Shown: positions 261 through 50,396 of the stretch, one piece after another
How the letters are laid out: the number at the start of each line of letters is the position of its first letter
Position numbering within the stretch: position 1 is the first letter of the stretch
Assembly: GCA_030390025.1 (NCBI GenBank)
Contig: CM059431.1
Location: 153,762,001-153,826,000, forward strand
Source: Squalus acanthias
Lineage: Eukaryota
DNA length: 64,000 bases
Direction: 5' to 3'
Made by a program: the position numbers and the translations under genes
The notes under the pieces: model-generated
Seen by the model: only the letters and a program-made list of their open reading frames with translations
Told to the model about the DNA's origin: nothing
Database searches by the model: none

Positions 261-459
261 GAAATCAGATCCCGAGTTGAATGTCACCGCAGAAGCGATG
301 CTTCCCAACTCATGTAAGGTACCGTGCTGGAAAAGGGAGCTCGGGGAGAAAGAACAATGTGGAACATATTGCTTCAACTGCAGAACACCAAACCCAAGCT
401 GAAAATGACATTGTCAGAGATACAGAACAGATGTGCAGATGGAAAAAGTGAGCTAGGAG
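261..459 (+). pseudogene. CARD-like exon B copy 1 (C-terminal half of module) with in-frame TAA
   Basis: ttgttag|GAA...GGAG|gttag, 199 nt; EIRSRVECHRRSDASQLM*GTVLEKGARGERTMWNILLQLQNTKPKL; TAA at 315-317. Confidence 0.8.
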
Positions 460-1525
460 GTTAGTAGTATCCAAATCTAATTCTCCGTTAGAAAAACAAA
501 GTTTTATTTAAGATGTGCACTATTTTTTACTCGTTTATGTGATGTGGGCGTCGCTACCAAGGCCAGCATTTATTAACAATCCCTAGTTGTCCTTGAGAAG
601 GTGGAGGCTTGCCGCTTTGCTGAAACGCTGCAGTCCATGTGTTGAAGGTTCTCCCACAATGCTGTTGGGGAGGCAGTGCCATGAGTTTGACAAATGTCAA
701 TGAAGGAACGGCTGTATACTTCCAAGAGAGGATGGTGTGTGTCTTGAAAGGGAACTTGGAAGTGTTGGTGTTCCCAGGCGCCTGATACTCTTGCCCTTCT
801 CCTTGGTAGAGGCCGCGGGTTTCGGAGGTACTGGCGAAGAAGCCTTGACGAGTTCCCGCAGTGCATTTTGTAGATGGTCCACTCTGCAGCCACTGGGTGG
901 CAGTGGGGAAGGGTCTGGATGCTACTAATTTATAAAGGCTTGTGTGAGTTTTATACTCGATTCCTTGAACGAACTTATAAATTTCGGCTTGGACAGAGCT
1001 CCACTACTCCTATGCAAATTCACCTTTTGTTCCTCGGATCCGTAATGCCCTCATTAACTGAACTACTTTGATTCCTTAAACCACATTGATCATTTGTGAA
1101 AGGCTCCTACTCATCCTCAAATCTCTCGCCTACCTTTTCTCTGAAGTCGTCTTCACATCCCCTCATTTGCACTCCAGTCCCTCCTCTCCCTTGCTGTGCT
1201 CTCCATTGTACCAGTTCATCAGCTCCGAACTCCAGACATACAACTCATCCCCACCGAATGGAACTCAGCTCATATGAGCTTCCATCTCTGTACTTCTTGC
1301 TTATTTAAACAACGACCACACGTAGCCAGGCCTGGGTTGTTTCTCTTAACTCCAGCAGAACATTCAGCGTTAATACTGAATACAACCACCTCTGCAAGGA
1401 AACACTAACAGTGTTCACTGCTTGAAAGACTCTCGAAAGAACTTCTGTCGCGATAGCCGTTAGTTCAGAGTATTCACTTGTTCCATAACATTTCTGTTAA
1501 TCTGTTCTCATTTACACCTTCACTG

Positions 1526-1695
1526 AAAATGCAGATACTGAAATATTACAAACATTGGCGAGCTACACGGATTTCCAGCTGCGCAGAGTTATCGATTGCC
1601 ACCGTCAGAGACTAGAACAGTCAATGGAAGAGGTAGTGGAGGCCGTTAGTCAGTCGCTTGTAGATGCAAACATGCTTACTGAAACAAAACTTAAG
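1526..1695 (+). CDS. CARD-like exon A copy 1 (N-terminal half); canonical acceptor mutated
   Basis: 170 nt, open: NADTEILQTLASYTDFQLRRVIDCHRQRLEQSMEEVVEAVSQSLVDANMLTETKLK|gtatgt; acceptor reads cactg instead of cacag. Confidence 0.7.
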
Positions 1696-1779
1696 GTATG
1701 TTTCATTTATGTTAGAATCGTATAGTTATAAATGAGTCAAACGATTGACTGTTTATACTCATAGAATCAGAGAGTCATC

Positions 1780-2543
1780 GCCCAGATATTGGAGTTCAAT
1801 GATTGCCGCGGGGGTAACGATCCGCCGCGATATCGCACTCCGCGCCTACCTTTATGGTTTTGGCCCACACGAACTTCAGTTCCTGGGCCTCTCCCTGGTG
1901 CCGGCACGCAGTGTGTGCGTGTCCCAGAGGCACAGTTAATTCGATATGACCTCTGGGATCACGTGGACCAGTTAGAGCCAATGGCAGCACACCATCTTTC
2001 ATTCATCGTTTTGACAGCAAGAGCTGTCAAAACTATGAACACAACAAGACCGCAAAAGAACAGCTAAACCTCAATTAATTTTTTTAAAAAGCCATCACAT
2101 TAATAAAATAACTATAGTAAAATAAATTAACCACTTTAAACAAAAATTTTAATGTTTGAAAAAGTTTTAAATTCTTTTTAAAAGTTATAAAAATAAACTT
2201 ACCTTCTTTACAGTCTCTAAAAAAGATAAACGTGTTGAAAAAAATTTAAAATTATACTTAATTAACTACTTACCTTGTTAAAAGGGGGTCTTACGCCTGC
2301 TTTCTTTATGTGTAAAATCTTCAACACTTACCTGCACTTTCAAACCTGAAAAAAAAACTAAGTGCGCTGCATGCGCACAACCTGTAGCGCGCACCCGGTT
2401 CACTTAGGAACCGCCCCCTTCGCAATACCCGAAGTGCCGGTTTCCCGCGCATGCGCAGTGCATGCAGGAAACCGGCACTTCGGGACCAAATACGCGAGAG
2501 TACACAGCTCGATCTCTTCCGCATTAGGTCTAATTTTCGGGCC
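1780..2543. mobile_element. TIR MITE (PIF/Harbinger-like, non-autonomous) inserted in the CR1 3' tail
   Basis: Termini GCCCAGATATT...AATTTTCGGGCC; AT-rich core; homologous to 21931-22693 and 45598-46357. Confidence 0.7.
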
Positions 2544-5500
2544 ATTGAGTTGACAACACAGAAAGAGGCCCTTCGGCCCATCGTGTCCGGCGCCGACCAT
2601 CAAGTCCTGTCTATTCTGATCCCATTTTCCAGCACTTGGTCCGTATCCTTGTATGCTATGGCGTTTCAAGTGCTCATCTAAATGCTTCTTGAATTTTGTG
2701 AAGGTTCCTGCCTCTACCACCCTTTCGTGAAGTGAGTTCCAGATTCCAACAACCCTCTGGGTGAAAAAGTTTTTCCTCAAATCCCCTCTAAACCTCGTGC
2801 CCCTTTCCTTGAAACTGTGCCCCCTTGTTATTGAACCCTCGACTAAGGGAAAACGTTCATTTCTATCTACCGTATCTGTGTCCCTCATAATTTTGTACAC
2901 CTCAATCAGGTCCCCCATCAGACATCTCTGCTCTAAGGAAAACAACCACAGCCTGTCCAGTCTCTCTTCTTAGCTGTAGCGCTGCTACGCAGGTAATATC
3001 CTGGTGAATCTCCTCTGCACCCTCTCCAATGCAATCACATCCTTCCTATAGTGTGGCGACCAGAACTGCACACAGCATTCCAGCTGTGGCCTAACTAGCG
3101 CTTTGTAAAGCTCCATCATAACCTCCCTGCTCTTATATTTTATGCCTCGGCTAATGAAGGCAAGTATCCCATATTTCTTCTTAACCAGCTTATCTACCTG
3201 TCCTGCTGCATTCAGGGATATATATGCATGCACACGAAGTTCCCTCAGATCTTTTGTCATTCCTAAGGTCCTACCATTCATTGTCTATTCCATTCCCTTG
3301 TTAGTCCTCCTAAAATGCATCCCCTCACACTTTTCAGGGTTAAATTCCAATTGCCACTGTTCTGCCCATCTGAACAACCCGTCTGTAACGTCCTGTAGCC
3401 TAAGGCTTCCCTCCTCCCTATTTACCACGCCACCAATTTTCGTGTCATCTGCGAACTTACTGATCATACCTCCTACATTCATATCTAAATCATTAATGTA
3501 CACTACAAACAGCAAAGTACCCAGCACCGATCACTGCGGTACACCACTGGGCACAGGCTTCCAGTCGCAAAAACAACCTTCGACCACCACCCTCTGCCTC
3601 CTGCCACGAAGCCAATTTTGGATCCAATGTGCCAAGTTGCCCTGGATCCCATGGGCTCTTACCTTCTTGATCAGGCTCCCATGCGGGACTGTTTCAAAGC
3701 CTTGCTGATGTGCATGTAGCCACATCAACTGCACTACCCTCATCCACACACATACTCACTCCCTCGAAAAATTAAATCAAATTGATCAGACATCATCTCC
3801 CCCTGAAAAAGCCATGCTGACTATCCTTGATTTATCCTTGCCTCTTCAAGTGGAGAGTAATACTGTCCTCAGAAGTTTTTCGAATAATTTCCCTACAAAT
3901 GATGTTAGGCTCACTGTCCTATAATTACCTGGTTAATCCCTACTACCCTTCTTGAATAATGGTACTATGTTAGCTGTTCTCGAGTCCTCTGGCACCTCAC
4001 CTGTGGCCATGAGGTTCTGAAAATTTATGTCATAGCCCCTGCAATCTCCTCCCTTCCCTCACACAGCAGCCTGTGATACATCTCGTCTGGGCCTGGGGAT
4101 TTATCCACTTTTAAGCCCGCTAAAACCGATAGTACCTCCTCCCTCTTAATACTAATTTGATAAGTATATCACAATCCCCCTGTCTGATTAATATGACTAC
4201 ATCTTCCTTCTCCATAGTGAACACAGATGCAAAATATTCATTTAAAACCCCACCTACATCTTCTGGCTCGACACACGGATTGCCACTTTGGTCCCTAATG
4301 GGCCCTACTCTTTCCCTGGTTATCCTCTTGACCTTAATATACATATATAACACCTTAGGATTGTCCTTTTTTCATTGTTAATTCATGCCCCCTCTTCACT
4401 CTCCTAATTTATTTTTTTCATTAACCCCCTGCACTTTCTATACTCCTCTAGGGCTTCCACTGTTATTAGTCCTTTGTTTCTTCCAAAATACTCCCTTTTT
4501 TCCGACTCCATTCTCGTATATCCCTTGACATCCACAGTTCCCACATTGGCTTGTTGGTCCCACCCTTGACATTTACGGGAACATGTTGCCGTTGTACTCT
4601 CTCGATTTCCTTTCTGAAAGAATCCCACTGCTCTGATGTGGATTAACCTACAAGTAGCTGATCCCAGTCCACTTTGGCCAGATCCTGCTTTATCATATTA
4701 AAATCGTCCTTCCCCCAATTTAGAACAGTTATTTCCACTTATCTTTTCCTTTTCCATGACGACCTTACATCTCACTGAATTATGGACACTGTCCCCAAAA
4801 TGCTCTCCTACTAACACTTCCACCACTTACACGGCTACATTCCCTAAACTTAGGTCCAGTACCGCCCCCTCTCTTGTAGGACTTTCTACATGCTTGCACA
4901 AAAAGCTCTCATGGAAGCCCTTTAAGAATTTCGCACCCTCTAAGCCTTTCGCACTCTCACTATCCCAGTTTATATTGGGGAATTTGAAATCTCCTACTAT
5001 TTTTACCTATTATTTCTACACTTCTCTGAGATTTGCCCAAATATCTATTCCTCTATCTCTCCTGACTGTTTGGGGGACTATGGTACACTCCCAGCAAAGT
5101 GCTTGCCCCTTTTTGTTTTTAAGTTCTACGATACGGCCTCATTAGAGGAACCTGCTAAGATATCATTCCTCCTTAAAGCAGTAATTGACTCCTTGATTAA
5201 TATTGCGACACCCCCTCCTCTTTTACACCCCCCTCTGTCTCGCCTGAAGATTCTATGGCCCGGAATATTGAGCTGCCAGTCCTGCCCCTCCCTCAACCAT
5301 GTCTCTGTGATAGCAACAATATCATACTCCCATGTGTTCATCAACCTGACTCGCAAGACTACTTGCATTTAAATAAATGCCATCTAGCCTTGCCATAATC
5401 AATTTTGCCTTTACATATTTGCTCTGCCTATCAGGCTTACTTGCTTTTTCCTCTATAGTTGGCTGTGCAACACCCCCTACTATCCTTCCACTCCGTATCC

Positions 5501-6452
5501 CATCCTTATGCCAAGTTAGTTTAAACCCCCCGCAACAGTATTGGAAATCTCCCCGCAATGATGTTGTTCCCGTTTCGGTTCAGGTGCAACCCGTCCGACT
5601 TGTACAGGTCACACCTTCCCCAGAAGCAGACCCAGTGATCCAGGAAACTAAAGCGCTCCGTCGTGCACCAACCCTTTAGCCACGCATTCATCTGCTCTAT
5701 CCTCCCATTCCTATACTCACCAGCACGTGGCACCGGGAGTAATCCAGAGATTACTTCCTTTGATGTCCTGCTTTTTAAATCTGCTACCTAGCTCCCTAAA
5801 TTCTTTTTGCAGAACCTCATCCCTCTTTCTACCCATGTCGTTGGTACCAATGTGAACCAGGACCTCTGACAGTTCGCCTTCCCCCATCAGAATGCCCTGC
5901 AGCCGTTCAGTGACATTCTTGACCCTGGTAACAGGGAGGCAACATATCATCCTGGAGTCACGTCTGTGGCCAGAGTAACGTCTATCTGTTCCCCTTATGA
6001 TAGAATCCCCTATCACGATTGCTCTCCCACTCTTTTTCCTCCCCTCCTGTGCAGCTGAGCCACTCGTAGTGCCACGGACTTGGCTCTTGCTGCATTCTCC
6101 TGAAAAACCATCTCCCCCATCAGTATCCAAAACGGAACATCTGTCGGACAGGGAGATGAACCCAGGGGACTTCTGCACTACCTTCCTAGTTATTTTACTC
6201 TGACTGATGGTCACCCATTCCCTACCTGCCTGTGCACACTTTACCTGTTGTGTGACCACCTTGTTAAACGTGCTATCCTCGAAGCTCTCAGCTTCGCGGA
6301 TTCTGCACAGTGACTCCAGCCGCAGCTCCAGCTCCGAAATGCGGATTTCGAGAAGCTGCAGCTGGAGACACTTCATGCACATGTGCCCGCCCTGGACACC
6401 TAAAGTGTTCCTGACTTCCAACATAGCACAGGAGGAGAACTCCACGCCTTTT
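2544..6452 (-). mobile_element. Near-full-length degenerate CR1 LINE (ORF1 esterase-type plus ORF2 APE/RT)
   Basis: Fragments ISKFADDTKIGG, LVRPQLECCVQFWSPHY, IVAITETWL and ORF1 AIVIGDSIIRG/HIGTND; many stops and frameshifts. Confidence 0.93.
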
Positions 6453-9400
6453 ATTCAGAGATTATTCTGTGCAATCCAACGATATAAGCAGTACATTACG
6501 CTGTACTGTTTTAACTTCAGTTGAAAATCTGAAATTAATGTCCTGTCTCAGTGATTTGAAATACTCTTCAGTGATATCTCTGTTAAATTAATTTTTCATG
6601 AATTGTCAATGCATGCATTCCTAATAAGAGAACAGTACCTCACGGACGAACCGTGATTTTTAATAGCTGCCTTCTGTGCCCAAGTATCGTCAGCTGCTTC
6701 ATCAATGACCTTCCTTCAAAAGGTCAGAGTTGGGGCTATTCGCTAATAATTGCACAATGTTTAGTTCCGTTCGCAATTCCTCAGAAAATTAAGCAGTCCA
6801 TGCCCACACGCAGCATGACCCGGACAACATCCAGGTTTGGGGCGATAAGTGAGAGGTAATATTTATGACACGTAAGTTTCAGGTGCTGGCTACATGCAAC
6901 TAGAGAAAGTCTAACCCATTACCATTGACATTCAATGGCTTTACCTTAGGCGTTCTACCATCATGAGTGTCCCGGTGATCATCAGTAAAATCAGCTCTGA
7001 GAATGTTATGCCAAACCTCTTGCAGTTAACGTTATTCCAGTAGCCAAGCCACTCGAAATAAGTAATTGAATAAGACAAAACATGCAGTGCAAGCAACACA
7101 CATCATCATTACAGTCCAATGGACAACCAGGTGCTAAGTCAAAACTGTTATAATCACATTATTCAAATCTAATGTGAATAACTGACACATACCAACTTAA
7201 CAGTATGACATTTCCTACGATCACGGCTGAGATACTCTACACATTATCCATCAAAACGGCCGAGCCTTTCGAATTGGATTGAGCCATTGCCGGTTGCACG
7301 GACTGAACAATTTCTACAATAACATATCCAATTTGTTTCTTCCATTCTACTTCTTGGTAAGTCCCACATCTACCTCGGCCCAAAACTTAGGGACGTCATC
7401 ACTCCGAGCATCTCCCGAGGCCACATCCTCTCACTTCAGTAATGCCATAATTTCGCATTTCATAAAAAACCCTAGTCTAATCGATGATGTTTATCTGCTC
7501 CCTTTCTCCAATAACTCCTCACTTATGTAACACAAATGTAAAGAGACATAATACTGTGAATAAAGCTGGGAGGTTCAAGGTACAGTTTGTCTGAGGGTAT
7601 GATATAATGATTTGATCGATGTGGCTTATATAAGTGCAGGATTGGGAGATGAATTGTGCCCTGTTACCTGAAGATCATGGTAACTTAATTTGTATGCAAA
7701 TAGGGAGCATTCATTAATAACAGTTTCAGTTGCAGAATTGGAACTTCAGGAATGATATAAGGAATTATTCAAAATAGAAATCTCAAAGTTTGGGGTAACA
7801 CCATCATAACATAACTCTTTTTTATAAAGCGTTCGTTGTCTTACACAAACTAATGGAAAAGTGATGGAAGATAAGTTATATAGACAAATTGGAGATAATG
7901 CAACAATGACAGTAACAGTGATTGGTGACTGTAAATATTCAAAGTACAGAAGTAATCTAATTGATTTAGGGAGGCCTTGGTGTCTAAAGGTTGTCCAGGA
8001 CATTATTCAGCTGGCTACAATTTTGGACGACAAGAAAGGATTGAGCATTTCATAAATTTCTAGAAATGGGCAGGGACTAGTCGGTGAGGTAAAGGCAGTG
8101 AAACATCTACCAATGTTATCGTTTATATGTTCATATGTTAGTATTCATATGAATTATAAAATGTTTCGTTACAATCAAAACAATAATTATGTTAAAGGAA
8201 TAAATCTAATGTCAACGAGGTTGACATATTAGCTCAGATACATTGAGGCGGATATTATCAAATAATATCGTGGGTAGGAAATAAGAAGATAGACAATGTA
8301 GGATTCCCATACAAGATACACAAATCACACGGGGAATGAAAGCAGTGCAGGACAGTCAAGAATTACTTGAGCTTGCAGAGATAATGAAATAAACAATAGA
8401 TTTAAAATTGAATGTAGGAGTGTTGGGCTGGTTATATAAAACAAATGAAGGAAACCTTGGTAATATAGTGAACATTTAATCGATGAATCAGTGTCCGGTG
8501 ACAGAGTTCGAGACAATGATCATATTCCAAAGACACTTCAAGGAAAAAAGTTAAACAAAGAAAAGTGCTGTGTAGAGATGAAATGGGAATGGTTCATATA
8601 GAGGACGTAGGATTCACTGAAAAGCTATTGGTACTGTTTCGATGAATTAACGTGATACTTGGAATGAATGAAAAACTCATTGAAGTCAATGGAAATGAAA
8701 GTCAGATGAGAGTAAAACTGGGCTGCAAATTCGCTTCAGCGCATTTGACCCAATTGGCCAACACCGGCCAACACTTGGGACGCATTTTTATGGGTGTCAA
8801 CTTGTGCAATCTGAGTTTCTAAAAAATTAACTGTGAGCTTTCAGAAATATTAAGTTGCTCCACTACCAATAATTACTGGTTTTGATCATATCCTATATCT
8901 GTAACGGTAGCTTTGTGCTTTGATTTTCGACTTTACCCTTTTCCATCAATCGGTTCCTGGTTATAATGAGAGAAAGATCAGTTTCCCTGGGTGTCTCAAA
9001 GCTGCTCCTTTCTATCTCAGTTACCTCTTCCAATCCTACAACCTGTCAAGATTCAGACGCTGGTCTAATTCTTACCTCTTGTGCATTCCCCTTTTTCCAT
9101 CGCTCCACCATTGACGGACTTGCCTTAAGCGGTTTAGACCCTAAGATCTTCAATTCCCTCCCCAAACCACTATGAATCTCTAATCTCTCTTCTCTTAGAC
9201 TCTCTTTAAATCTACTCTCTGACCAAGCTTTGGTCACCTGTCCTAATATCTTCCTCTGATGCTTGATGTTACATTTTGTTTGATAACACTCCCTTTGCAA
9301 CGCTTTGGGACGTTTTACTACGCTAGTTGTTGTTGCTTCTAATTAATTATCATTGCGGGCGCTCCTCCTGCCTGACAAATGGCATATCTTCCTTTTATTC

Positions 9401-9589
9401 GCTTATGGGATCTGGGCTTCGCTGGCAAGGACAGCATTTATTGACCGTCCCTTAATTGTTTTCTGCATTAACTCCCGATTCTGAGCATTTATTCTCTCTC
9501 CTAAGGAAAGCTAGAAATCGAAAAGACGTTTCCTTTCCGAGTTTGTACATTACTTCTCTGTATATGATTGCAATATACATTCTTGTTAG

Positions 9590-9788
9590 GAAATCAGAAC
9601 ACTAGCTGAATGTCACCGCAGAAGCGATGCATCCCAACTTATTTTCGACACCGTGCTGGAAAAGGGAGCTCGGGGAAAAAGAACAATGTGGAACATATTA
9701 CTTCAACTGCAGAACACCAAACCCAAGCTGAAAATGACATTGTCAGAGATGCAGAATAGAAATACAGAAGGAGAAAGTGATCTAGAAG
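9590..9788 (+). CDS. CARD-like exon B copy 2
   Basis: ag|GAA...GAAG|gt; open: EIRTLAECHRRSDASQLIFDTVLEKGARGKRTMWNILLQLQNTKPKLKMTLSEMQNRNTEGESDLE. Confidence 0.8.
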
Positions 9789-10847
9789 GTTAGTGGTATC
9801 CAAATCTATATTTCCGTTAGAATAACAAAGTTTCATTTGAGGTGAGAATTTTATTTTATTCTTTTAAGGGATGTGGGCGTCACTGGCAAGGCCAGCATAT
9901 ATTGCACATCCCTAGTTGCACTTTCGAAACTGTTGGGTATCCGCTTTCTGAAACGCTGCAGTCGATGACTTGAAGTTACTCCCACAATACTGTTGGGGAA
10001 GGAGTGCCATGAGTTTGACACAGCGACAATGAAGGAAAGGCGATATTCTTTAAAGTTAGGATGGTGTGTGAGTCGGAGGGGAAAATGGATGTAGTGGTGT
10101 TCCCAGGCGCCTGCTGCTCTTGTCCTTCTAGGCGGTAGATCTCGTGGATTTGGGAAGTGCCGTCGAAGAAGCGTTAATGAGTATCCGCAGTGCATCTTGT
10201 AGATGGAACACTCTGCAGCCACGGTGTGGCAGTGGGGAAGGGACTGAATGCAACAAATTGATTCATGCTTGTATGAGTTTTATACTCGATTTCTCAAATG
10301 AACTGCCCGTTATAAATTGCAGCTTGGACAGCGACCTCTACTCCTATTCAAATTCATCCTCAATTCCACGTTTCCGTGATGCCCAAAATAACTGACCTAC
10401 TATGATTTCTTATCCCATATTGATCAATTGTGAAAGGCTGCTGCTCATCCTAAAAGCCCTCCCCCACTTTATCTCTAAAGTCGTCTTCACATCGCCTCTT
10501 TTACAATCCTGTCCGTCGTCTCCCCTTGCTGTGATCTCCAGTGTACCAGTTCATCTGCTCCGGACTCCAGACATAGAATTCATTCACACCGACTGGAACT
10601 CAGTTCCTATTAGCTTCCATCTCTGTACGTCTTACTAATGTTAAGCATCGACCACATGTTGCAAGGCCTGGTTCGTTTTCTTAACTCCAGCAAAGCAATT
10701 CTGCGTTAATTCTGAATTCCACCTCTGTAAGGCTCCACTGGCAGTGTCACCGCTAAACAACTGCTGTCGCGATAGCAGTTAGTTCAGAGTATTCACTGTT
10801 TCATAGCGGAAATTTATGTTAATCTGTTCTCATTTACACCTTCAAAG

Positions 10848-11017
10848 AAAATGCAGTTACTGAACTATCACTAACGTTGGCGAGCTACACGGATTTCCAG
10901 CTGCGCAGAGTTATCGTTTGCTACCGGCAGAGACTGGAACAGTCAATTGAAGAATTCGTGGAGGCCGTCAGTCAGTCGCTTGTAGATGCAAACGTATTTA
11001 CTGAAACAGATCATAAG
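10848..11017 (+). CDS. CARD-like exon A copy 2
   Basis: caaag|AAAATGCA...AAG|gtatgt; open: NAVTELSLTLASYTDFQLRRVIVCYRQRLEQSIEEFVEAVSQSLVDANVFTETDHK. Confidence 0.8.
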
Positions 11018-14000
11018 GTATGTTTCATATATGTTCCACTCGTATGGTGTTAAATGAGTCAAACGATTGACTGTTTAGACAGACTGTGTTCTGTACAACC
11101 CAACTGTATTAGCGATACTTTACGCTGCACTTTATTTACTGAAATTATTGTCCAGTGCCAGTGTAATCAACATTTAATGTACTCTTCTGAGGTATCTCTC
11201 TGAAAAATTATTTTTTCAGGAATTTTCAATGAATGTATTCATAATAAGATAAGTTTCTCCTGGACTAACAGTGATTTTTTAATGGCAGCATTCTTGGCAC
11301 AATTATTGCCAGCTTCAATAATCTTCCTTCAAAAGCTCAGAGTTGGGGCAGTTCCCTGATGATTGTACGATGTTTTGTTCCATTCGCAAATCCTCAGAAA
11401 ATGAAGCAGTCGATTCCCACACGCAGCATGACCTAGACAACATCCATGTTTAGGCCGATAAGGGGCAGGTAACATTTATGCCGCGTAGTACCAGGTACTG
11501 ACTACCAACAGATAGAGAAAGTCTAACACATTGCCGTTGACATTCAATAGCTTTACTATTGGAGTTCTACGACCATGAGTGTCCCGGTGATCACCAGTAA
11601 AACCAGCTGTGAGAATTCACTGCCAAACTTCTTGCAGTTAACGTAATTCCAGGAGCCAAGGCCCTCGAAATGAGTAATTGAATAAGACACAATGCGCAGC
11701 CTAAGCATCACGCATCCTCATTAAAACCCCAAATGGACAACCTGTAGATAGATCAAAACTGTAATAACCTCATACGTCAAATCGCATGAGAATAAGTTAA
11801 CTGACACATACGAACTTAACAGTATGAATTTCCAACCGATCACGTCCGAGATTTTCCGCCCCTTCTCCATCAAAACGGCCGAGAATTTCCAAATGGATTG
11901 AGCCATTGACGGCGGATTTAAACAATTTCTGCTGAACATATCCAATTCGTTTCTCTATTCTGCTTCTTGCTAAGTCCAGCTCCTACTTTGGTACAATGCT
12001 CAGGGACATCAACAAACCCGGCCTCTCCCGAGGCCACATCCTCTCACCTCATGAATGCCAGAATATCCAATTTCTTAAAGAAACCTAGACTAAGTTATGA
12101 TGTTTGTCTGCTCCATTTCTTCAATACCTCCTCACTTATGTAACATAAATGTAATGCAACATAGTAATGTGAATAAAGCTTGTGAGTTCAATGAACACTT
12201 TGTCTGATGGTATGACATAACGATTTGATCACCGTGACTTATATAAAGGCTATATTGGGAAATGAAGTGCCCTGTTACCAGCAGATCATGGTAACTTAAG
12301 TTGTATGCCAAAAAGGGAGCAGTCATTAATAACAGATTAATTTGCCGCATTGGAACTTCAGGACTGATATAAGGAATGATTCAAAATAGAAATCTATAAG
12401 TTTGGGGTAACACAATAATAATGGAACACTTTTCTATAAGGCGTTCGTTGTTGTACACCAAATTGTGGAAAAGGGATAGGCGAAGAGTTATATAGACAAA
12501 TTGGAGAAAATGCAGCAATAACAGTAACGGTGATTGGTGACTTTAAATATCCCAAGAACAGAAGTGACATAAGTGGGGAGGGAGGCCAGGAATCTGAAGC
12601 TTTGCCAGGACATTATTCAGATAGGTGCCATTTTAGGACAACAAGAAAGGATTGAGCATTTGATCCATTTCTAAAAATTGACAGCGGCTACTCAGTGAGG
12701 TAAGTCTAGTGAAACATTCACCAATTATATCGTTATTATCCATATAAATTAGAAAATGTTTCGTTAAAATCAAAACAATAAATATGTTAAAGGAAAATAT
12801 CTAATTTCAACGTGGCTAACATATTAGCTCAGTTATATTGAGGCAGATATGATCAGATAATATCGTGGTGAGGCAATAGAAAGATAGACAATAGAAGTTT
12901 ACCATATAAGGTACACAAATCACACGTGAATGAAAGGAGTGCAGCACAAACGAGAATTGCATGAGCGCGCATAGAAAATGAAATAAAGAACATAATTTAC
13001 AATTGAATGTAGGAGTGTAGGGCTAGTTATATAAAAAAAACGAAGGACGTGTTGGTAATATAGTGAATATATATAATAGATGAATGAGTGCCCGGTGACA
13101 GAGTTCAGATAATGATCACATTCCGTATAAACTTCAAAGAAAATAGTTACAGAAATAGCAGAGCTGCTCAGAGAAGAAAAGGGAATGGTACATATAGATG
13201 ACGAGGGATTAACTGAAAACTATTAGTACTGCTTCGATGAATGAAAGTGATACTTGGAATGAGTGAAAAACTCATTGAAGTCAATGGAAAGAAAGTCAGA
13301 TGCGAGTAAACTGGGCTGTCAATACGCTTCAGCGCGTTTGACCAAATTGACCAACAATGGCCAACAAACTGCGACCCATTTTTATGGTTGTCTTCTTGTG
13401 CAATATGAGTTTTTTTTAAACTATCAGTGAGCTTTGAAAAATATTATGTTGCTTAACTACCAATAGTTATTGGTTTTGATCGTATCCTACATCTGCAAAC
13501 GTAGATTTGTGCTTTGATTTTGCACTTTACCCTTTTCCGTCAATCAACTGCTGGTTATAATGAGAGAAAGATCAGTTGCCGTGGGGGTCTCAAAGCTGCT
13601 CCTTTCTGTCTCTGCAACCTCTTCCAATCCTACAACCTGTCGAGATTCAGGCGCTGGCCCAATTCTTACCTCTTGTGCATTCCCCATTTCCATCGGTCCA
13701 CCATTGATGGCCTTGCATTAAGCGGTTTAGACACTAAGCTCTGGAATTCCCTCCCCAAACCAGAATGAATCTCTAACTCTCTCTTCTCAAAGACTCTTTT
13801 AAATCTACTCTGTGACCAAGCTTTGGTCACCTGTCCTAATATCTTCATCTGATGCTTGGTGTTACATTTTGTTTGATAACACTCCCTTTGCAACGCTTTG
13901 TGACGTTTTACTACGTTAGTTTTGTGTTGTTTCTACTTACTTCTCATTGCAGGCACGCCTCCTGTCTGACTAATGGCGTAACTTCCTTTTATTCGCTTAT

Positions 14001-14183
14001 GGGATCTGGGCCTCGCTGTCAAGGACAGCATTTATTGCTCATCCCTTAATTGTTTTCTGCATTAACTCCCGATTCTGAGCGTTTCATCTCTCTCCGAAGG
14101 AAAGCTAGAAATCGAAAAGACGTTTCTTATCCGAGTTTGTACATTACTTCTCTATATATGATTGCAATATACATTCTTGTTAG

Positions 14184-14382
14184 GAAATCAAATCCCGAGC
14201 TGAATGTCACCGCAGAAGCGATGCATCCCAACTCATTTTCGATACCGTGCTGGAAAAGGGAGCTCGGGAAGAAAGAACAATGTGGAACATCTTGCTTCAA
14301 CTGCAGAACACCAAACCCAAGCTGAAAATGACATTGTCAGAGATACAGAACAGATGTACAGAGGGAGAAAGTGATCTAGGAG
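14184..14382 (+). CDS. CARD-like exon B copy 3
   Basis: Open, canonical ag/gt; overlaps ORF 14247-14534 (LEKGAREERTMWNILLQLQNTKPKL). Confidence 0.8.
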
Positions 14383-15448
14383 GTTGGTGTTATCCAAATC
14401 AAATTTTCCGTTGGAATAAGAAAGTTTTATTTAAGGTGAGAATTATATTTCATTCTTTTAAGGAATGTGGGCGTCACTGGCAAGACCAGCATTTATTGCC
14501 CATCCCTAGTTGCACTTGCGAAGTTGTTGGGTAACCGCTTTCCTGAAACGCTGCAGTCGATGTGGTGAAGGTAAACCCACAATGTTGTTGGAGAGGGAGT
14601 GCCATGTATTTGACACAGCGACAATGAAGGAAAGCGATATACTTTAAAGTTAAGATGGTGTGTGAGTTGGAGGGGTAAATGGAAGTAGTGGTGTTCCCAG
14701 GCGCCTGCTGCTCTTGTCCTTCTAGGTGGTAGATCTCGTGGATTTGGGAGGTACCGTCGAAGAAGACTTGACGAGTTCCCGCAGTGCCTCTTGTAGATGG
14801 AACATTCTGCAGCCACGATGTGGCTGTGGGGAAGGGACTGTATGCTACTAATTGATTCATGCTTGTATGAGTTTTATACTCGATTCCTTAAACGAACTTT
14901 GACACTGCCCGTTATAAATTTCATCTTGGACAGGGACCACTACTCCTATTCAAATTCACCCTTAGTTCCACGGCTCCGTGATGCCCACATTATCTGACCT
15001 ACTTTGATTCCTTATCCCATATTGATGATTTGTGAAAAGCTCCTGCTCATCCTATATGCCCTCCCCCACTTTATCTCTAAAGTCGTCTTCAAATCCCCTC
15101 TTTTGCACTCATGTCACTCCTCTCCCCTTGCTGTTGTCTCCAGTGTACAAGTTCATCTGCTCCGCACTCCAGACATAGAACGCATTCACACCGACTGGAA
15201 CTCAGTTCCTATGAGTTTCCATCTCTTCACGTCTTACTTATTTTAAGCATCGACCATATGTTGCAAGGCCTGGTTCGTTCTCTTATTTCCAGCAAAACAA
15301 CCTGCGTTAATTCTGAATTCCACCTGTGTAAGGCTCCACTGGCAGTGTCACCGCTAAACAACTGCTGTCGCGATAGCAGTTAGTTCACAGTATTCACTGT
15401 TTCATAGCGGGCATTTATGTTAATCTGTTCTCTTTTATAATTTCAAAG

Positions 15449-15618
15449 AAAATGCAGTTACTGAAATATCACTAACGTTGGCGAGCTACACGGATTTCCA
15501 GCTGCGCACAATTATCGTTTGCTACCGACACAGACTAGAACAGTCAATTGAAGATTTCGTGGAGGCCGTTAGTCAGTCGCTTGTAGATACAAACGTATTT
15601 ACTGAAACAGATCATAAG
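15449..15618 (+). CDS. CARD-like exon A copy 3
   Basis: Open, canonical ag/gt, 170 nt. Confidence 0.8.
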
Positions 15619-18600: not shown

Positions 18601-18772
18601 GTCGCTGGCAAGGACAGCATTTATTGCTCATCCCTTAATTCTTTGCTGCATTAACTCCCGATTCTGAGCGTTTCATCTCTCTCCTAAGGAAAGCTAGAAA
18701 TAGAAAAGACGATTCTTATCCGAGTTTGTACATTACTTCTATATATATGATTGCAATATACATTCTTGTTAG

Positions 18773-18971
18773 TAAATCAGATCCCGAGTTGAATGTCACC
18801 GCAGAAGCGATGCTTCCCAACTCATGTTCGGTACCGTGCTGAAAAAGGGAGCTCGGGGAGAAAGAACAATGTGGAACATATTGCTTCAACTGCAGAACAC
18901 CAAACCCAAGCTGAAAATTACATTGTCAGAGATACAGAACAGATGTACAGCTGGAAAAAGTGAGCTAGGAG
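18773..18971 (+). pseudogene. CARD-like exon B copy 4; first codon GAA>TAA
   Basis: ttgttag|TAAATCAGA; remainder is open and homologous to copy 1. Confidence 0.75.
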
Positions 18972-19152
18972 GTTAGTGGTATCCAAATCTAATTCTCCGT
19001 TAGAATAACAACGTTTTATTTCAGATGAGACCTATTTTTTACTCGTTTATGTGATGTGGGCGTCGCTACCAAGGTTAGCATTTATTACCCATCCCTAGTT
19101 GCCCTTGAGAAGGTGGTGGTTCGCCGCATTCCTGAAACGCTGCAGTCCATGC

Positions 19153-20818
19153 ATTGGTAATAATTTTTCAAAACTCCCTGGATTCCGCTAAGGTCCCGGC
19201 AGACTGGAAAACTGCTAATGTAACACCCTTATTTAAAAAGGGCAGTAGACAGAAGGCTGGTAACTATAGACCGGTTAGCCTAACATCTGTGGTAGGTAAA
19301 ATTTTGGAGTCCATTATTAAGGAAACAGTAACAGGACATTTGGATAATCATAATTTAATAGGACAAAGTCAGCATGGTTTTACGAAGGGGAAGTCATGTT
19401 TGACAAATTTGCTGGAGTTCTTTGAGGAAGTAACATATAGAGTGGATAAAGGGGAACCAGTGGACGTAGTGTATTTAGACTTCCAAAAGGCATTTGACAA
19501 GGTGCCACATAAAAGATTATTGCTTAAGGTAAAAAATCACGGAATTGGGGGTAATATTCTGGCATGGATAGAGGATTGGCTATCTAACAGAAAGCAAAGA
19601 GTTGGGATAAATGGTTCATTCTCAGACTGGCAATCAGTAACTAGTGGTGTTCCACAGGGGTCAGTGCTGGGTCCCCAACTCTTCACAATCTATATTAACG
19701 ATTTGGAGGAAGGGACCAAGTGTAACATATCAAAATTTGCAGATGATACAAAGATGGGAGGGAAAGTAGTGAATGAGGAGGACATAAAAAACCTGCAAGG
19801 GGACATAGACAGGCTAAGTAAGTGGGCAGAGATTTGGCAGATGGAATACAACACTGGAAAGTGTGAGGTGATGCACTTTGGCAGGAAAAATCCTAGAGCA
19901 ATTTATTATCTTAATGGCAAGAAACTGGAGAGTACTGAAGTGCAAAGGGATCTGGGGGTCCTGGTGCACGAAACTCAAAAGGTTAGTATGCAGGTGCAGC
20001 AAGTGATTAAGAAGGCAAATGGAATGTTGGCTTTCATTGCTAGGGGGATAGAATATAAAAATAGGGAGGTATTGCTTCAGTTGTACAAGGTATTGGTGAG
20101 ACCGCACCTGGAATACTGCATACAGTTTTGGTGTCCTTACTTAAGGAAAGACATCCTTGCTCTCGAGGCAGTGCAAAAAAGGTTCATTCGGTTAATCCCG
20201 GGGATGAGGGGGTGGTCATATGAGGAGAGGTTGGGTAGATTGGGACTCTACTCATTGGAGTTCAGAAGAATGAGAGGCGATCTTATTGAAACATATAAGA
20301 TTGTGAAGGGGTTGGATCGGGTGGATGCGGGGAGGATGTTCCCGATGACGGGTGAGACGAGAACTAGGGGACATAGTCTTAGAATAAGGGGCTGCTCTTT
20401 CAAAACTGAGATGAGGAGGAACTACTTCACTCAGAGGGTGGTAGGTCCATGGAATATGCTGCCACAAAAAGCTGTAGAAGCTACAACATTAATTAAATTT
20501 AAAACAGAAATAGACAGTTTCCTAGAAGTAAAGGGCATTAAGGGTTACGGGGAGCGGGCAGGAATTTGGACATGAGTCTAGGTTCGGATCGGTCATGGCC
20601 CTGTGGGTAGTGGAGCGGGCCCAGGGACTGTGTAGCCTGATTCTGCTCCTATTTCGTGTGTGCAATTCTGTTAGTTGCAGGAGATGGTTCTGTGATAGAT
20701 AGTAGATTGGCGGTTAGGATCAGATCAGCCATGATCTTATTGAATGGCGGAGCAGGCTCGAGGGGCCGATTGGCCTACTCCTGCTCCTATTTCTTATGTT
20801 CTTATGTTCTTATGTTCT
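19153..20818 (+). mobile_element. Young 5'-truncated CR1 LINE with uninterrupted RT ORF
   Basis: 473-aa ORF 19154-20575 (NYRPVSLTS, LDFQKAFDKV, GVPQGSVLGP, FADD); (TTCTTATG)n tail; absent from the paralogous position at ~640. Confidence 0.95.
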
Positions 20819-21676: not shown

Positions 21677-21846
21677 AAAATGCAGATAATGAAATATTAC
21701 CAACGTTGGCGAACTACACGGATTTCCAGCTGCGCAGAGTTATCGGTTGCTACCGTCAGAGACTAGAACAGTCAATTGAAGAGGTAGTGGAGGCCGTTAG
21801 TCAGTCGCTTGTAGATGCAAACATGCTTACTGAAACAAATGGTAAG
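21677..21846 (+). CDS. CARD-like exon A copy 4
   Basis: cacag|AAAATGCA...AAG|gtatgt; open. Confidence 0.8.
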
Positions 21847-21930
21847 GTATGTTTAATCTATGTTGGAATCGTAAAGTTTTAAATGAGTCAAACGATTGAC
21901 TGTTTATAGTCATAGAATCAGAGAGTCTGA

Positions 21931-29600: not shown

Positions 29601-29794
29601 TATTCGCTTATGGAATGTTGGCGTCGCTGGCAAGGACAGCATTTATTGACCATCCCTTAATTGTTTTCTGCATTAACTCCCAATTCTGAGCGTTTAATCT
29701 CTCTCCTAAGGAAAGCTAGAAATAGAAAAGACGCTTCCTTTCCGAGTTTGTACATTACTTCTCTATGTATGATTGCAATATACATTCTTGTTAG

Positions 29795-29993
29795 GAAATC
29801 AGAAACCTAGCTGAATGTCACCGCAGAAGCGATGCATCACAACTTATTTTCGATTCCGTGCTGGAAAAGGGAGCTCGGGGAGAAAGAACAATGTGGAACA
29901 TATTGCTTCAACTGCAGAACACCAAACCCAAGCTGAAAATGACATTGTCAGAGATGCAGAATAGAAGTACAGAGGGAGAAAGTGATCTAGAAG
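29795..29993 (+). CDS. CARD-like exon B copy 5
   Basis: Open, canonical ag/gt; shares SEMQNR with copy 2. Confidence 0.8.
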
Positions 29994-31060
29994 GTTAGTG
30001 CTATCCAAATCTAATTTTCCGTTAGAATAACAAAGTTTCATTTAAGGTGAGAATTTTATTTTATTCTTTTAAGGGATGTGGGCGTCACTGGCAAGGCCAG
30101 CATACATTGTCCATCCCTCGTTGCACTTTCGAAACTGTTGGGTAGCCACTTTCTGAAAAGCAGCAGTCGATGTGGTGAAGGTACTCCCACAATACTGTTG
30201 GGGAAGGAGTGCCATGAGTTTGACACAGCGACAATGAAGGAAACGCGATATACTTTAAAGTTAGGAATGGTGTGTGAGTTGGAGGGGAAAATGGAAGTAG
30301 TGGTGTTCCCAGGCGCCTGCTGCTCTTGTCCTTCTCGGCGGTAGATCTCGTGGATTTGGGAGGTGCCGTCGAAGAAGAGTTGAATGAGTTGCCGCAGTGC
30401 ATCTTGCAGATGTAACACTCTGCAGCCACGGTGTGGCAGTGGGGAAGGGACTGAATGGTACAAATTGATTCATGCTTGTATGGGTTTTATACTCGATTTC
30501 TTAAATGAACTTTGGCACTGCGTTATCATATGCAGCTTGGACAGCGACCTCTATTCCTGTTCAAATTCAGCCTTAGTTCCACGGTTCCGTGATGCCCACA
30601 TTAACTGACCTACTTTGATATCTTGTCCCATATTTATCAATTGTGAAATGCTGCTGCTCATCCTAAAAGCCCTCCCCAACTTTATCTCTAAAGTCGTCTT
30701 CACATCGCCTCTTTTACACTTCTGTCCGTCGTCTCCCCTTGCTGTAATCTCCAGTGTACCAGTTCATCTGCTCCGGACTCCAGACATAGAACGCATTCAC
30801 ACCGACTGGAACTCTGTTCCTATGAGCTTCCATCTCTGTACGTCTTACTTATGTTAAGCATCGACCACATGTTGCAAGGCCTGGTTCGTTTTCTTAACTC
30901 CAGCAAAGCCAGTCTGCGTTAATTCTGACTTCAACCTGTGTAAGGCTCCACGGGCAGTGTCACTGCTAAACAACTGCTGTCGCGATAGCAGTTAGTTCAG
31001 AGTATTCACTGTTTCATAGCGGAAATTTATGTCAATCTGTTCTCATTTACACCTTCAAAT

Positions 31061-31230
31061 AAAATGCAGTTTCTGAACTATCACTAACGTTGGCGAGCTA
31101 CACGGATTTTCAGCTGCGCAGAGTTATCGTTTGCTACCGGCAGAGAATAGAACAGTCAATTGAAGAATTCGTGGAGGCCGTTAGTCAGTCGCTTGCAGAT
31201 ACAAACGTAATTACTAAAACAGATCATAAG
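31061..31230 (+). CDS. CARD-like exon A copy 5; canonical acceptor mutated
   Basis: Open (ORF 31090-31284 ASYTDFQLRRVIVCYRQRIEQSIEEFVEAVSQSL); acceptor caaat; in-frame CAG at 31067-31069. Confidence 0.7.
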
Positions 31231-34200
31231 GTATGTTTCATATATGTTCCAATCGTATGTGTGTTAAATGAGTCAAACTATTGACTGTTTAGACAGACTG
31301 TGTTTGCTGCAACCCACCTATATTAGCGGTACTTTACGCTGCACTTTATTAACTGAAGTGCCAGTGTAATCAACATTTGAAGTACCCTTCAGAGATATCT
31401 CTCAGTTAATTTATTTTTTCAGGAATTTTCATTGAATGTATTCATAATAAGAGAAGTTTCTCATGAACAAACCATGATTTTTTAAAGGTAGCCTTCTTGG
31501 CCCAATTATCGTCAACTACAATAATCTTCCTTCAAAAGCTCAGAGTTGGGGCTGTTCGCTGATGATTGTACGGTGTTTAGTTCCTTTCGCAAATCCTCAG
31601 AAAATGAAGCAGTCGATGCCCACACGCAGCATGACCTAGACAACATCCATATTTCGACCGATAAGGGGCAGCTAACATTTATGAAGGGTAGTACCAGGTA
31701 CTGGCTACCTACAGCTAGAGAAAGCCTAACCAATTGTCGTTGACATTCAATGGCTTTACCATCGGATTTCTAAAAACCATGAGTATCCCGGCATCACCAG
31801 TAAAACCAGCTCTGAGATTTCACTGCCAAAATTTTTGCAGTTAACGTAATTCCAGTTGCCAAGCCCCTCGAAATGTGTAATTGAATAAGACACAATGTGC
31901 AGCCTCAGCATCATTTATCCTCATTACAGCCCCAATGGACAACCTGGAGATAGATCAAAACTGTAATAACCACATAAATCAAATCGCATGTGAATAAGTT
32001 AACTGACACATACGAACTTAACAGTATGAATTTCCCTACGATCACGGCCGAGATTTTGCGCCCATTCTTCATCAAAACGGCCGAGAATTTCCAATTGGAT
32101 TGAGCCATTGCCGGTGGTGCGGATTTAAACAATTTCTGCTGAACATGTCCAATTCGTTTCTTCTATTCTACTTCTTGCAAAGTCCCGACCCTACATTGCT
32201 CCAATGCTCAGGGACATCAACAAACCCGTCCTCGACCGAGCCCACATCCTCTCAACTCATGAATGCCATAATATCCCATTTCTTAAAGAAATCTAGACTA
32301 ATCTATGATGTTTATCTGCTCCCTTTCTCCAATAGCTCCTCACTTATGTAACACACATGTAATGAAACATAATACTGTGAATAAAGCTTGTGAGTTCAAT
32401 GAACAGTTTGTCTGAGGGTATGACATAATGATTTGATCAATGTGGCTTATATAAGGGCAGGATTGGCAAATGAAGTGCCCTGTTATCAGCAGATCATGGT
32501 AACTTAAGTTTAATGCAAATAGGGAGCAGTCATTAATAACAGATTCATTTGACGTATTGGAACTTCAGGACTGATATAAGAAATGATTCAAAATATAAAT
32601 CTATAAGTTTGGGGTAACACAATAATAATGGAACATTTTGTTTATAAGGCGTTCGTTATCTTACACCATACAGTGGAAAAGGAATAGAGGAAGAGTTATA
32701 TAGACAACTTGGAGGAAATGCAGCAATAACAATAACGGTGATTGGTGACTTTAAGTATCCCAAAAACAGAAGTAACATAAGTGGGGAAGGGAGGCCAGGC
32801 GTCTGAAGCTTTACCTGGACATTATTCATTTTATGACAATAAGAAAGGATTGAGCATTTGATCCATTTCTAAAAATTGACAGCGGCTACTCAGTGAGCTA
32901 AGTCTAGTGAAACATTCACCAATTATATCGTTAGTATTCATATGAATTAGAAGATGTTTCGTTAAAATCAAAACAATAAATTTGTTACAGGAAAATATCT
33001 AATTTCAACGAGGCTAACATATTAGCTCAGTTATATTGAGGCAGATATGATCAGATAAAATGGTGGTGAGGCAATATAAAGATAGCCAGTAGAAGTTTTA
33101 CGTACAAGATACACAGAGCACAAGTGAATGAAAGGAATGCAGCCCAAACTAGAATTACTTGGGCGTGCATAGAAAATGAAATAAAGAGCAGATTTTACAA
33201 TTGAATGTAGGATTGTAGGGCTAGTTATATAAAACAAATGAAGAACGCCTTGGTAATATAATGAATATATAATGGATGAATGAGTGGCCGGTGACAGAGT
33301 TCAGATAATGATCACATTCCGTTTAAACTGCAAAGAAAATATTTACACAAATAACAGAGCTGCTTAGAGATGAAAAAGGAATGGTTCATATAGATGACGA
33401 TGGATTAACTGAAAACTATTAGTACCGTTTCGATGAATGAAGGTTAAACTTGGAATGAGTGAAAAACTCATTGAAGTAAATTGTAAAGAAAGTTATACGC
33501 GAGTAAAACGGGCCGCCGATTCGCTTCAGAGCGTTTGACCCAGGTGGCCAACACTGGCCAACACCTTGTGACCCATTATTTATGGTTGCCAACTTGTGCA
33601 ATCTGAGTTTTACAAACCAAGCTGTGAGCTTTCAAAACGATTATTGCCCTTAACAAAGAATAATTATTGGTTTTGATCGTATCCTATACCTGTAATCTTA
33701 AATTTGTGATTTTATTTAGCAATTTACCCTTTTCCATCAATCAGTTGCTGGTTATAATGAAAGAAAGTCCAGTCGCCCTGGGTGTCTCAAAACTGTTCCT
33801 TTCTATCTTTATAACCTCTTCGGATCCTACAACCTGTCGAGATCCAGGCGCTGGTCCAGTTCTGGCATCTTGTGCATCCCCCATTTTCATCGTTGCACCA
33901 TTGGTGGCCTTGCCTTCAGCGGATTAGTCCCTAAGCTCTGGAATTCTCTCCCGAAACTACTATGAATCTCTAGCTCTCTCTTCTCTAAGACTCACTTTAA
34001 ATCTACTCTGTGACCAATCTTTGGTCACCTGTCCTAATATCATCCTCTGATGCTTTATGTTACATTTTGTTTGATGACACTCCCTTTGCAAGGGTTGGGA
34101 CGTTTTACTACGCTAGTTTTTGTTGTATCTAATTAATTCTCATTGCAGGCACGCCTCCTGTCTGACTAATGGCGTATTTTCCTTTTATTCGCTTATGGGA

Positions 34201-34379
34201 TCTGGGCGTCGTTGGCAAGGACAGCAATTCTTGATCATTCCTTAATTGTTTTCTGCATCAACTCCCGATTCTGAGCTTTTCAACACTCTCCTAAGGAAAG
34301 CTAGAAATAGAAAAGACGTTTCTTATCAGAGTTTGTACATTAATTCTTTATATATGATTGCAATATACATTCTTGTTAG

Positions 34380-34578
34380 AAAATCAGATCCCTAGCTGAA
34401 TGTCACCTCAGAAGCGATGCATCCCAACTAATTTTCGATCACGTGCTGGAAAAGGGAGCCCCTGGAGAAAGGCAAATGTGGACCATATTGCTTCAACTGC
34501 AGAACACCAAACCCAAGCTGAAAATGACATTGTCAGAGATACAGAATAGATGTACAGAGGGAGAAAGTGATCTCGAAG
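34380..34578 (+). CDS. CARD-like exon B copy 6, last before NACHT
   Basis: Open: KIRSLAECHLRSDASQLIFDHVLEKGAPGERQMWTILLQLQ...; phase-1 donor matches the NACHT exon acceptor. Confidence 0.82.
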
Positions 34579-40471: not shown

Positions 40472-40558
40472 ACTCAATGAGAATAAACTGGGAGATTCGG
40501 GAGTGAAACGGCTTTCTGCAGTTCTACAGAAAAATGATTGTAAAATACAGAGACTGGA
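40472..40558 (+). CDS. NLR LRR exon (87 nt)
   Basis: tttttag|A CTC AAT GAG...; LNENKLGDSGVKRLSAVLQKNDCKIQRLE (RI-like LRR); donor gtgagt; phase 2-2. Confidence 0.9.
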
Positions 40559-41271: not shown

Positions 41272-41332
41272 ATTGATACGCAATCAGCACATTGCAGAAG
41301 AAAAGCAAATTCTGACGTCAATCAATGTATAG
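41272..41332 (+). CDS. Probable terminal NLR coding exon
   Basis: ttttacag|A TTG ATA CGC AAT...GTA TAG; AATAAA at 41468-41473. Confidence 0.7.
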
Positions 41333-50392: not shown

Positions 50393-50396
50393 GAAA

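What the first reader, a model, noticed from the sequence alone, without database searches (positions are those of the whole stretch)
261..34578. Symmetric phase-1 modules allow combinatorial splicing around dead copies
All A exons and all B exons have interchangeable phases, so any upstream A can join any downstream B and any B can join NACHT. Stops in B1 (315-317) and B4 (18773-18775) mean constitutive splicing would terminate before NACHT. That gives either a CARD-only product or a need for skipping, making variable CARD number a plausible diversification mechanism. The alternative is a decaying gene.
Basis: partly seen in the sequence, partly recalled or inferred. Interest (0 to 1): 0.7.

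Follow-up and report, generated by a model that had tools for sequence, protein, structure and literature searches.

The report
Broken twin of seventeen-CARD shark receptor
The repeated exon pairs and both stop codons are in the sequence, but this gene is a young duplicate of a shark-type immune sensor (NLR) whose 99%-identical twin nearby has no such stops, so it is likely a spare copy losing function, and splicing around the dead exons remains untested.

Summary
Five A exons (phase 1 to 0), six B exons (phase 0 to 1) and an open phase-1 NACHT exon are present, with TAA at 315-317 and 18773-18775. Each A+B pair is a CARD-like module (relative's module: Pfam CARD; fold Z 12.3). Phase symmetry is what any frame-keeping tandem duplication must show, so it is no evidence of splicing. 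The gene (at least 13 B exons) is a ~1%-diverged duplicate of a 17-module gene 0.9 Mb away on the same gap-free contig, and both stops are private to this copy. Intact relatives keep 23 of 23 modules open against about 15-18 stops expected if neutral, and 6 of 9 nearby NACHT exons are broken. Skipping a dead B alone shifts the frame. Best reading: a duplicate losing function (0.6). Against it: the two dead exons are sisters, and this copy's coding changes cluster around them while its other module exons are conserved (small numbers, post hoc). That leaves paired-exon skipping (0.2) or a CARD-only product (0.12) open. Reads could not genotype the stops. This scan described the 17-CARD twin before.

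The parts
261..459 (+). B exon of module 12 (numbering by the twin gene); carries TAA at 315-317; alternative in-frame donor at 447
315..317 (+). TAA, private to this copy (twin has TTA)
1535..1695 (+). A exon of module 13 (phase 1 to 0)
9590..9788 (+). B exon of module 13, open
10857..11017 (+). A exon of module 14 (in-frame alternative acceptor at 10848)
14184..14382 (+). B exon of module 14, open
15458..15618 (+). A exon of module 15
18773..18971 (+). B exon of module 15; first codon TAA (twin has GAA); sister copy of the B exon at 261
19149..20818 (+). Intronic LINE insertion with a reverse-transcriptase frame, absent at this place in the twin
21686..21846 (+). A exon of module 16 (in-frame alternative acceptor at 21677)
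29795..29993 (+). B exon of module 16, open
31070..31230 (+). A exon of module 17
34380..34578 (+). B exon of module 17, open, last before NACHT
36537..38256 (+). NACHT-winged helix-HD2 exon, open, phase 1 to 2
38814..39490 (-). Intronic LINE fragment absent at this place in the twin
40472..40558 (+). LRR-like exon (87 nt)
40835..41026 (+). LRR-like exon (192 nt)
41272..41332 (+). Predicted last coding exon with the natural stop

Best explanation
This gene is a recent tandem duplicate of a shark-type NLR with 17 two-exon CARD-like modules; it carries two stop codons that its twin lacks and is likely losing function, because normal splicing would stop translation in module 12. Shown: the exon anatomy, the duplication (about 185 kb at 0.98% divergence, same gap-free contig), that both stops are private to this copy, and that modules in intact relatives stay open. 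Inferred: the modules are spliced constitutively into one long CARD chain; a stop followed by many exon junctions would send the mRNA to nonsense-mediated decay (textbook rule, recalled, not tested here); loss is tolerated because the twin is intact; the loss probably came some time after the duplication rather than at birth. CARD number in this family varies between genes through DNA duplication (1, 3, 8 or more, 13 or more, 17 modules), not demonstrably through splicing.
For: The twin g2 at G000:C7:154.57-154.72 Mb matches this copy at 0.98% substitutions over 160,044 aligned bases, and the only gap in 1,178,000 bases lies left of this gene. The twin has TTA and GAA where this copy has TAA; 44 of 46 and 35 of 37 other copies share the twin's letter. 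0 of 23 modules of g2+g3 carry a stop or a length change although their tree spans ~328 substitutions, ~17.6 stops expected if neutral (14.9 on terminal branches); pN/pS is 0.64; intron flanks show ~3 indels per pair in 400 nt. Two stops are near the 1.3-1.6 expected by chance for an unconstrained copy of this age. An open NACHT+LRR is expected 32% of the time even without selection. Splice sites of the dead exons equal those of the twin's open exons. Skipping a dead B alone ends in a stop after 26-29 codons. 6 of 9 NACHT exons of this subfamily in the 1.18 Mb are broken. No 99% match to the twin's module-3 region exists among the 40 best-scored places in the assembly, so this copy may even lack its 5' end.
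Against: Coding changes are 19 in each copy over 6,219 nt (neutral expectation 25 for this copy, p=0.13), and outside the six exons around the stops this copy has only 7 amino-acid changes against 15 expected (p=0.017) and 2 changes in 3,117 nt of other module exons against 12.5 (p=0.0003). Ten of 17 non-stop changes lie in those six exons (p=0.0001), or 4 of 11 after dropping 4 conversion-linked and 2 unclear sites (p=0.10). The two stops fall in sister exons (chance ~0.8% for any of 4 sister pairs, post hoc). No reliable frameshift is seen (1.9 expected if neutral from birth, p=0.15); the one frameshift upstream lies in an indel-rich contig end (36 indels in 3.7 kb against 0-8 per 5 kb elsewhere) and is probably an assembly error.
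Confidence: 0.6

Rival explanations
1. Paired-exon skipping rescues the gene. The two B exons with stops and their next A exons (1.1 kb away; 2.7 kb where a LINE has inserted) are skipped as cassettes, joining A of one module to B of the next at phase 0. This would give a receptor two CARDs shorter than the twin. Full combinatorial diversification is the strong form of this idea (about 0.07 of the 0.2).
For: The frame permits it. Lineage-specific coding changes cluster around the dead exons while other module exons are depleted. The dead exons are sisters of one internal three-module duplication. NACHT, LRR and last exons are open with normal splice sites. Nonsense-associated skipping exists at an estimated 5-30% of stops (PMC8464065, abstract).
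Against: It needs four exons skipped in one transcript; no weakened splice site was seen. One stop in each cassette has probability ~0.005 even if the cassettes were neutral. The same cassettes in the twin are open and show no significant excess of amino-acid changes (12 in 357 nt against 19 in 714, p=0.32). 0 of 23 modules are dead in intact genes. Among 9 shark or ray proteins looked up (10 with one unrelated), only one cluster had isoforms, differing by 42 residues, less than a module.
Confidence: 0.2
2. The first stop converts the duplicate into a CARD-only chain (up to 11 CARDs) that could act as a decoy or scaffold, as primate CARD16/17/18 do for caspase-1.
For: Precedent in PMC11383037 (passages): CARD-only genes that arose by CASP1 duplication. 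Exons upstream of the first stop have fewer clear private changes (2 in 2,215 nt) than those downstream (10 in 4,005 nt), though not significantly (p=0.23).
Against: Many exon junctions follow the stop, so decay is expected (recalled rule). There is no AATAAA/ATTAAA in the intron right after the dead exon (460-1534). The 5' end of this copy is not assembled.
Confidence: 0.12
3. One or both stops are consensus errors or alleles private to one haplotype, and the gene is normally an intact poly-CARD NLR.
For: The contig end 44 kb upstream of the window is error-rich. Overall coding change equals that of the intact twin (19 and 19). No laid contig was seen to carry the 18773 stop letter (inconclusive).
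Against: Both are substitutions in a stretch with normal indel density (0-3 per 5 kb) and ordinary divergence from the twin. Both would have to be wrong to restore the frame.
Confidence: 0.08

Closest known systems
Shark and ray 'NACHT, LRR and PYD domains-containing protein 3-like' automatic models: P0006 (Mustelus asterias, XP_078087540.1, 3 modules) and P0008 (Scyliorhinus torazame, XP_072354261.1, 5 modules)
   Same: Same ~115-residue N-terminal module (48 of 63 NACHT relatives carry at least one), NACHT 48-50% identical, short LRR tail.
   Different: At most 5 modules per protein among the shark and ray proteins seen, against at least 13 B exons here and 17 modules in the twin; this copy has two internal stops. 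The 'PYD' in the name is automatic: the module folds as a CARD.
NLRP-related family expanded in whale shark (PMC8455134, passages read)
   Same: Lineage-specific NLR expansion in a cartilaginous fish, with birth-and-death turnover suggested by the authors.
   Different: The passages seen do not describe tandem CARD arrays; membership of that clade was not tested by a tree.
NOD2, RIG-I and MDA5 tandem CARDs; NOD1 and NLRC4 single CARDs
   Same: CARD fold N-terminal to the sensor; the relative's module matches ARC, NLRC4, NOD1 and caspase-1 CARDs (Z 11-12).
   Different: One or two CARDs (recalled), not 13-17; sequence identity only 8-21%.
CARD-only proteins CARD16/17/18 (PMC11383037, passages read)
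   Same: Duplicate of a CARD-bearing gene in a locus with segmental duplication and gene conversion.
   Different: Single CARD, from caspase-1, expressed; here no truncated transcript is shown.
Ectocarpus ROCO and NB-ARC-TPR exon-shuffled receptors (PMC3341825, passages read) and Dscam-type cassette arrays (recalled)
   Same: Frame-compatible repeated exons in candidate immune receptors, clusters with many pseudogenes, repeat number differing between recent duplicates.
   Different: Those use single symmetric exons in the ligand-binding part and, in Ectocarpus, dead exons sit within the arrays; here the unit is a two-exon signalling domain and intact genes hold no dead modules.

Membership tests
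NLR | NACHT NTPase domain | tested here: met
   Pfam NACHT 113.1 bits against cut-off 26.7
NLR | Winged-helix and HD2 after NACHT | tested here: met
   NOD2_WH 30.1 bits above cut-off 23.1; NLRC4_HD2 30.1 bits, E 7.8e-07, just under its cut-off 33.1
NLR | C-terminal LRRs | tested here: inconclusive
   Two exons match the C-termini of P0006 and P0008 by tblastn; no Pfam LRR scan was run on them
CARD | Death-fold helical bundle of CARD type | tested here: met
   Tested on the homologous module of P0008 (window exons 53% and 47% identical): Pfam CARD 40.4 bits above cut-off 23.9; model pLDDT 91; top VIA-align matches are CARDs, best Z 12.3, rmsd 1.5, 80 aligned. Foldseek gave no E below 0.001 but ranked CARDs first. 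Single window exons alone do not pass Pfam.
Functional full-length NLR gene | One open frame from start to LRR under constitutive splicing | tested here: not met
   Two TAA codons in B exons; the 5' end lies in or beyond an assembly gap
Combinatorially spliced exon array | Frame-compatible interchangeable units | tested here: met
   Pairs only; single exons are asymmetric
Combinatorially spliced exon array | Transcripts with alternative junctions | not testable with these tools
   No informative transcript data could be laid on the gene
Combinatorially spliced exon array | Dead units tolerated in otherwise intact genes | tested here: not met
   0 of 23 modules in g2+g3 are dead against ~15-18 stops expected if neutral; this gene itself is the only candidate among the three long arrays examined
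CARD-only protein | Stable transcript ending after the CARDs | not testable with these tools
   No transcript data; no polyadenylation hexamer in the first intron after the stop
Unprocessed pseudogene | Disabling lesions plus neutral evolution across the coding sequence | tested here: inconclusive
   Lesions present; overall rate not distinguishable from neutral (p=0.13), but depleted outside the exons around the stops (p=0.017)

The most novel reading that the evidence does not exclude
This copy is a working receptor that skips two B+A exon pairs, and shark poly-CARD NLR genes use paired-exon skipping to make receptors with variable numbers of (often hybrid) CARDs, tuning signalling valency by splicing. 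The 17-module twin would allow about 9 million in-frame paths on paper.
Probability: 0.12. Interest if true: 0.75.

Novelty: new variant of a known kind. Interest (0 to 1): 0.36.

Why it matters
An NLR with 13-17 CARDs in a row is far outside the one or two CARDs of studied receptors. That architecture belongs to the intact twin, which this scan already noted. What this window adds is a natural experiment: a ~1%-diverged duplicate with stops in two sister exons. If it is dying, it shows birth-and-death in a young shark NLR cluster and that the modules are normally all needed in frame. If transcripts skip the two exon pairs, it would be a direct case of CARD number set by splicing. One long-read RNA data set decides between these.

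Tried and rejected
Reads: no RNA holder was listed for the NACHT exon (9 runs listed, best DNA share 0.45). Laying contigs of 4 runs on 1-19400 was swamped by repeats and showed no exon junction. On 18690-18960, 37 contigs were laid and 19 shown; one spans 18742-18784 with one unlike letter whose place is not listed, and none shown matches exactly across the stop. The stops are therefore not genotyped. False duplication (an allele placed in tandem) was considered because this copy starts at a gap; rejected because no gap separates it from the twin, barring a misjoin. The upstream frameshift (153,719,773) was first taken as a third lesion, then dropped as a probable contig-end error. Pfam and PDB sequence searches with single exons gave no CARD above cut-off. 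A search with the P0008 module region returned only itself. No first exon or membrane segment was found by tblastn with 10 relatives' N-termini over the fetched DNA, and the 46 kb left of the gap is simple-repeat-rich DNA without modules. Literature searches (for shark multi-CARD NLRs; 59, 62, 63, 70, 74 for background) listed no paper on tandem-CARD arrays in shark NLRs; listings only, many subscription journals are not held, and no supplementary files were read. Counting changes branch by branch on the module tree was not done, so dN/dS is pairwise only.
Full report
What is there. The window lies at G000:C7:153,762,001-153,826,000 of a 3.7-Gb genome. Its NACHT exon has its best relatives among shark and ray proteins, so the animal is taken to be a cartilaginous fish. 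A self-comparison shows a tandem array with six B exons and five A exons, followed by an open NACHT exon (36537-38256; Pfam NACHT 113 bits), two LRR-like exons and a last exon ending at 41332. A is phase 1 to 0 and B phase 0 to 1. TAA at 315-317 and 18773-18775 is confirmed.

The module is a CARD. Single exons do not pass Pfam, but a profile of four window modules finds the same ~110-residue unit in 48 of 63 NACHT relatives, three times in P0006 and five times in P0008. The last module of P0008 passes Pfam CARD (40.4 bits, cut-off 23.9). Its model (pLDDT 91) matches solved CARDs best (ARC Z 12.3, rmsd 1.5; NLRC4, ASC, NOD1 and caspase-1 at Z 11-12). The window's exons are 53% and 47% identical to it. 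A profile search of 1.84 billion representatives gave 123 hits, mostly with one module and at most four among the strong hits.

The gene is longer than the window and has a twin. Seven more B and seven more A exons lie upstream, up to an assembly gap at 153,717,962. From that gap on, about 185 kb matches a stretch at 154.63-154.80 Mb with 0.98% substitutions over 160,044 aligned bases. The only gap in 1,178,000 fetched contiguous bases is that one, so both copies sit on one contig and are paralogs, not alleles, unless the contig is misjoined. The twin (g2) has 17 modules: 16 were checked in full and have no stop; the first was seen by tblastn only, without stops in the aligned part, and modules 1-2 are assigned to g2 by position. 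The window's dead exons are B12 and B15 in this numbering. The twin has TTA and GAA at those codons, as do nearly all other copies. The stops are therefore young and private. A third gene (g3) has 8 full modules and one more B exon in the part fetched, all open; a fourth array (g4) is decayed throughout. Six of nine NACHT exons of this subfamily in the 1.18 Mb are broken or partial (five small degenerate fragment matches not counted), and about 35 related NACHT exons are spread over some 6 Mb (40 of 239 candidates scored).

Does phase symmetry point to splicing? No. A module can be duplicated in tandem without breaking the frame only if its ends share a phase, so interchangeability is a by-product; PMC3632108 (passages) treats phase symmetry as the signature of module exchange and tandem duplication, with only a correlation to alternative splicing. 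Single exons here are asymmetric: skipping a dead B alone gives a stop 26-29 codons on, so rescue needs a B and a neighbouring A skipped together, twice. The dead exons keep the same splice sites as their open twins. If dead modules were harmless, they should pile up in intact genes. They do not: 23 modules of g2 and g3 (the divergent module 2 and all g1 modules left out) span a tree of ~328 substitutions, for which ~17.6 stops are expected if neutral (14.9 on terminal branches; equal mutation rates assumed, and conversion may inflate the tree). None has a stop or a length change, while intron flanks differ by ~3 indels per pair. Public isoforms gave no module-sized difference (only one of ten clusters had more than one member).

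Results against the simple decay reading. Differences between the copies, assigned by the majority letter of other copies, split evenly in introns (0.40-0.45% and 0.44-0.55%) and in coding sequence overall (19 and 19 of 6,219 nt; neutral expectation 25, p=0.13). But 12 of this copy's 19 lie in the six exons around the dead B exons (1,042 nt), and only 2 in the other 3,117 nt of module exons (12.5 expected, p=0.0003). Amino-acid changes outside those six exons are 7 against 15 expected (p=0.017). Without the two stops, four conversion-linked sites and two unclear sites the clustering is 4 of 11 (p=0.10). The dead exons are sisters from an internal three-module duplication, a coincidence of about 0.8%. 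These tests are post hoc and rest on few changes. They fit either late loss of function or skipping of the two B+A pairs. Against skipping, one stop in each neutral cassette has probability ~0.005, and the twin's matching cassettes show no significant relaxation (p=0.32). The upstream frameshift is discounted as a contig-end error. The 5' end of this copy is unassembled or absent. Public runs could not genotype the stops.

Mechanism. Most likely (0.6) the parent gene is spliced into one long CARD chain ahead of NACHT-LRR, CARD number changes by DNA duplication, and this redundant copy has begun to decay; its mRNA, if made, would be expected to undergo nonsense-mediated decay (recalled rule). 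Rivals are paired-exon skipping (0.2; nonsense-associated skipping is estimated at 5-30% of stops in PMC8464065, abstract and section list seen), a CARD-only product like CARD16-18 (0.12; PMC11383037, passages) and error or private alleles (0.08).

Comparison and novelty. It is an NLR by NACHT and winged helix, of the shark and ray 'NLRP3-like' kind. NLR expansion and turnover in sharks are described (PMC8455134, passages), as are premature stops in nearly 10% of zebrafish NLR sequences (PMC11192531, passages) and repeat-number differences between duplicated receptors in a brown alga (PMC3341825, passages). My searches listed no paper on arrays of many CARDs in shark NLRs. The poly-CARD architecture is a new variant of a known kind, already noted by this scan on the twin. 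The specific claim of combinatorial splicing around dead copies is unproven and less likely than decay.

Noticed in passing
window 48764-61424: Provirus-like LTR element (LTRs 98.8% identical; Pfam RT, RNase H, integrase; an env-like region) with internal stops and frameshifts, inserted 3' of the gene with a 4-nt target duplication and absent at this place in the twin; a related copy (95-96%) lies inverted at G000:C7:153,856,596-153,865,963.
   Followed up: partly
window 19149-20818 and 38814-39490: A young LINE family: copies 99.3-99.9% identical occur at different places in this copy and in the twin; the one at 19149 holds a 479-residue open reverse-transcriptase frame.
   Followed up: partly
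A exons of g1-g3, e.g. G000:C7:153,747,327 and 155,468,833: Every A exon keeps at least one of two in-frame acceptors 9 nt apart (33 and 32 of 36 singly, 36 of 36 together), although each is lost in some copies: a further sign that all modules must stay spliceable in frame.
   Followed up: yes
window 15511 and 15528; G000:C7:153,758,944 exon: Two sister A exons share the same two differences from the twin, which points to gene conversion within the array.
   Followed up: partly
G000:C7:153,904,425-153,941,286 and 155,104,886-155,139,360: Right after the twin-like segment ends, the DNA matches another part of the cluster at 94-97%; the cluster is a mosaic of segmental duplications of different ages.
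   Followed up: partly
P0065 and P0008: Two models of what looks like one Scyliorhinus torazame gene differ by one whole module; this could be an allele, an assembly collapse or a prediction difference.
   Followed up: no
P0006 residues 1-120; P0070: Some relatives have hydrophobic, possibly membrane-spanning segments beside the CARD modules; no matching exon was found by tblastn in the fetched DNA.
   Followed up: partly
window 61761-62807 (-): A 348-residue frame at the window's end, probably a decayed retroelement; no Pfam match at E 0.001.
   Followed up: no
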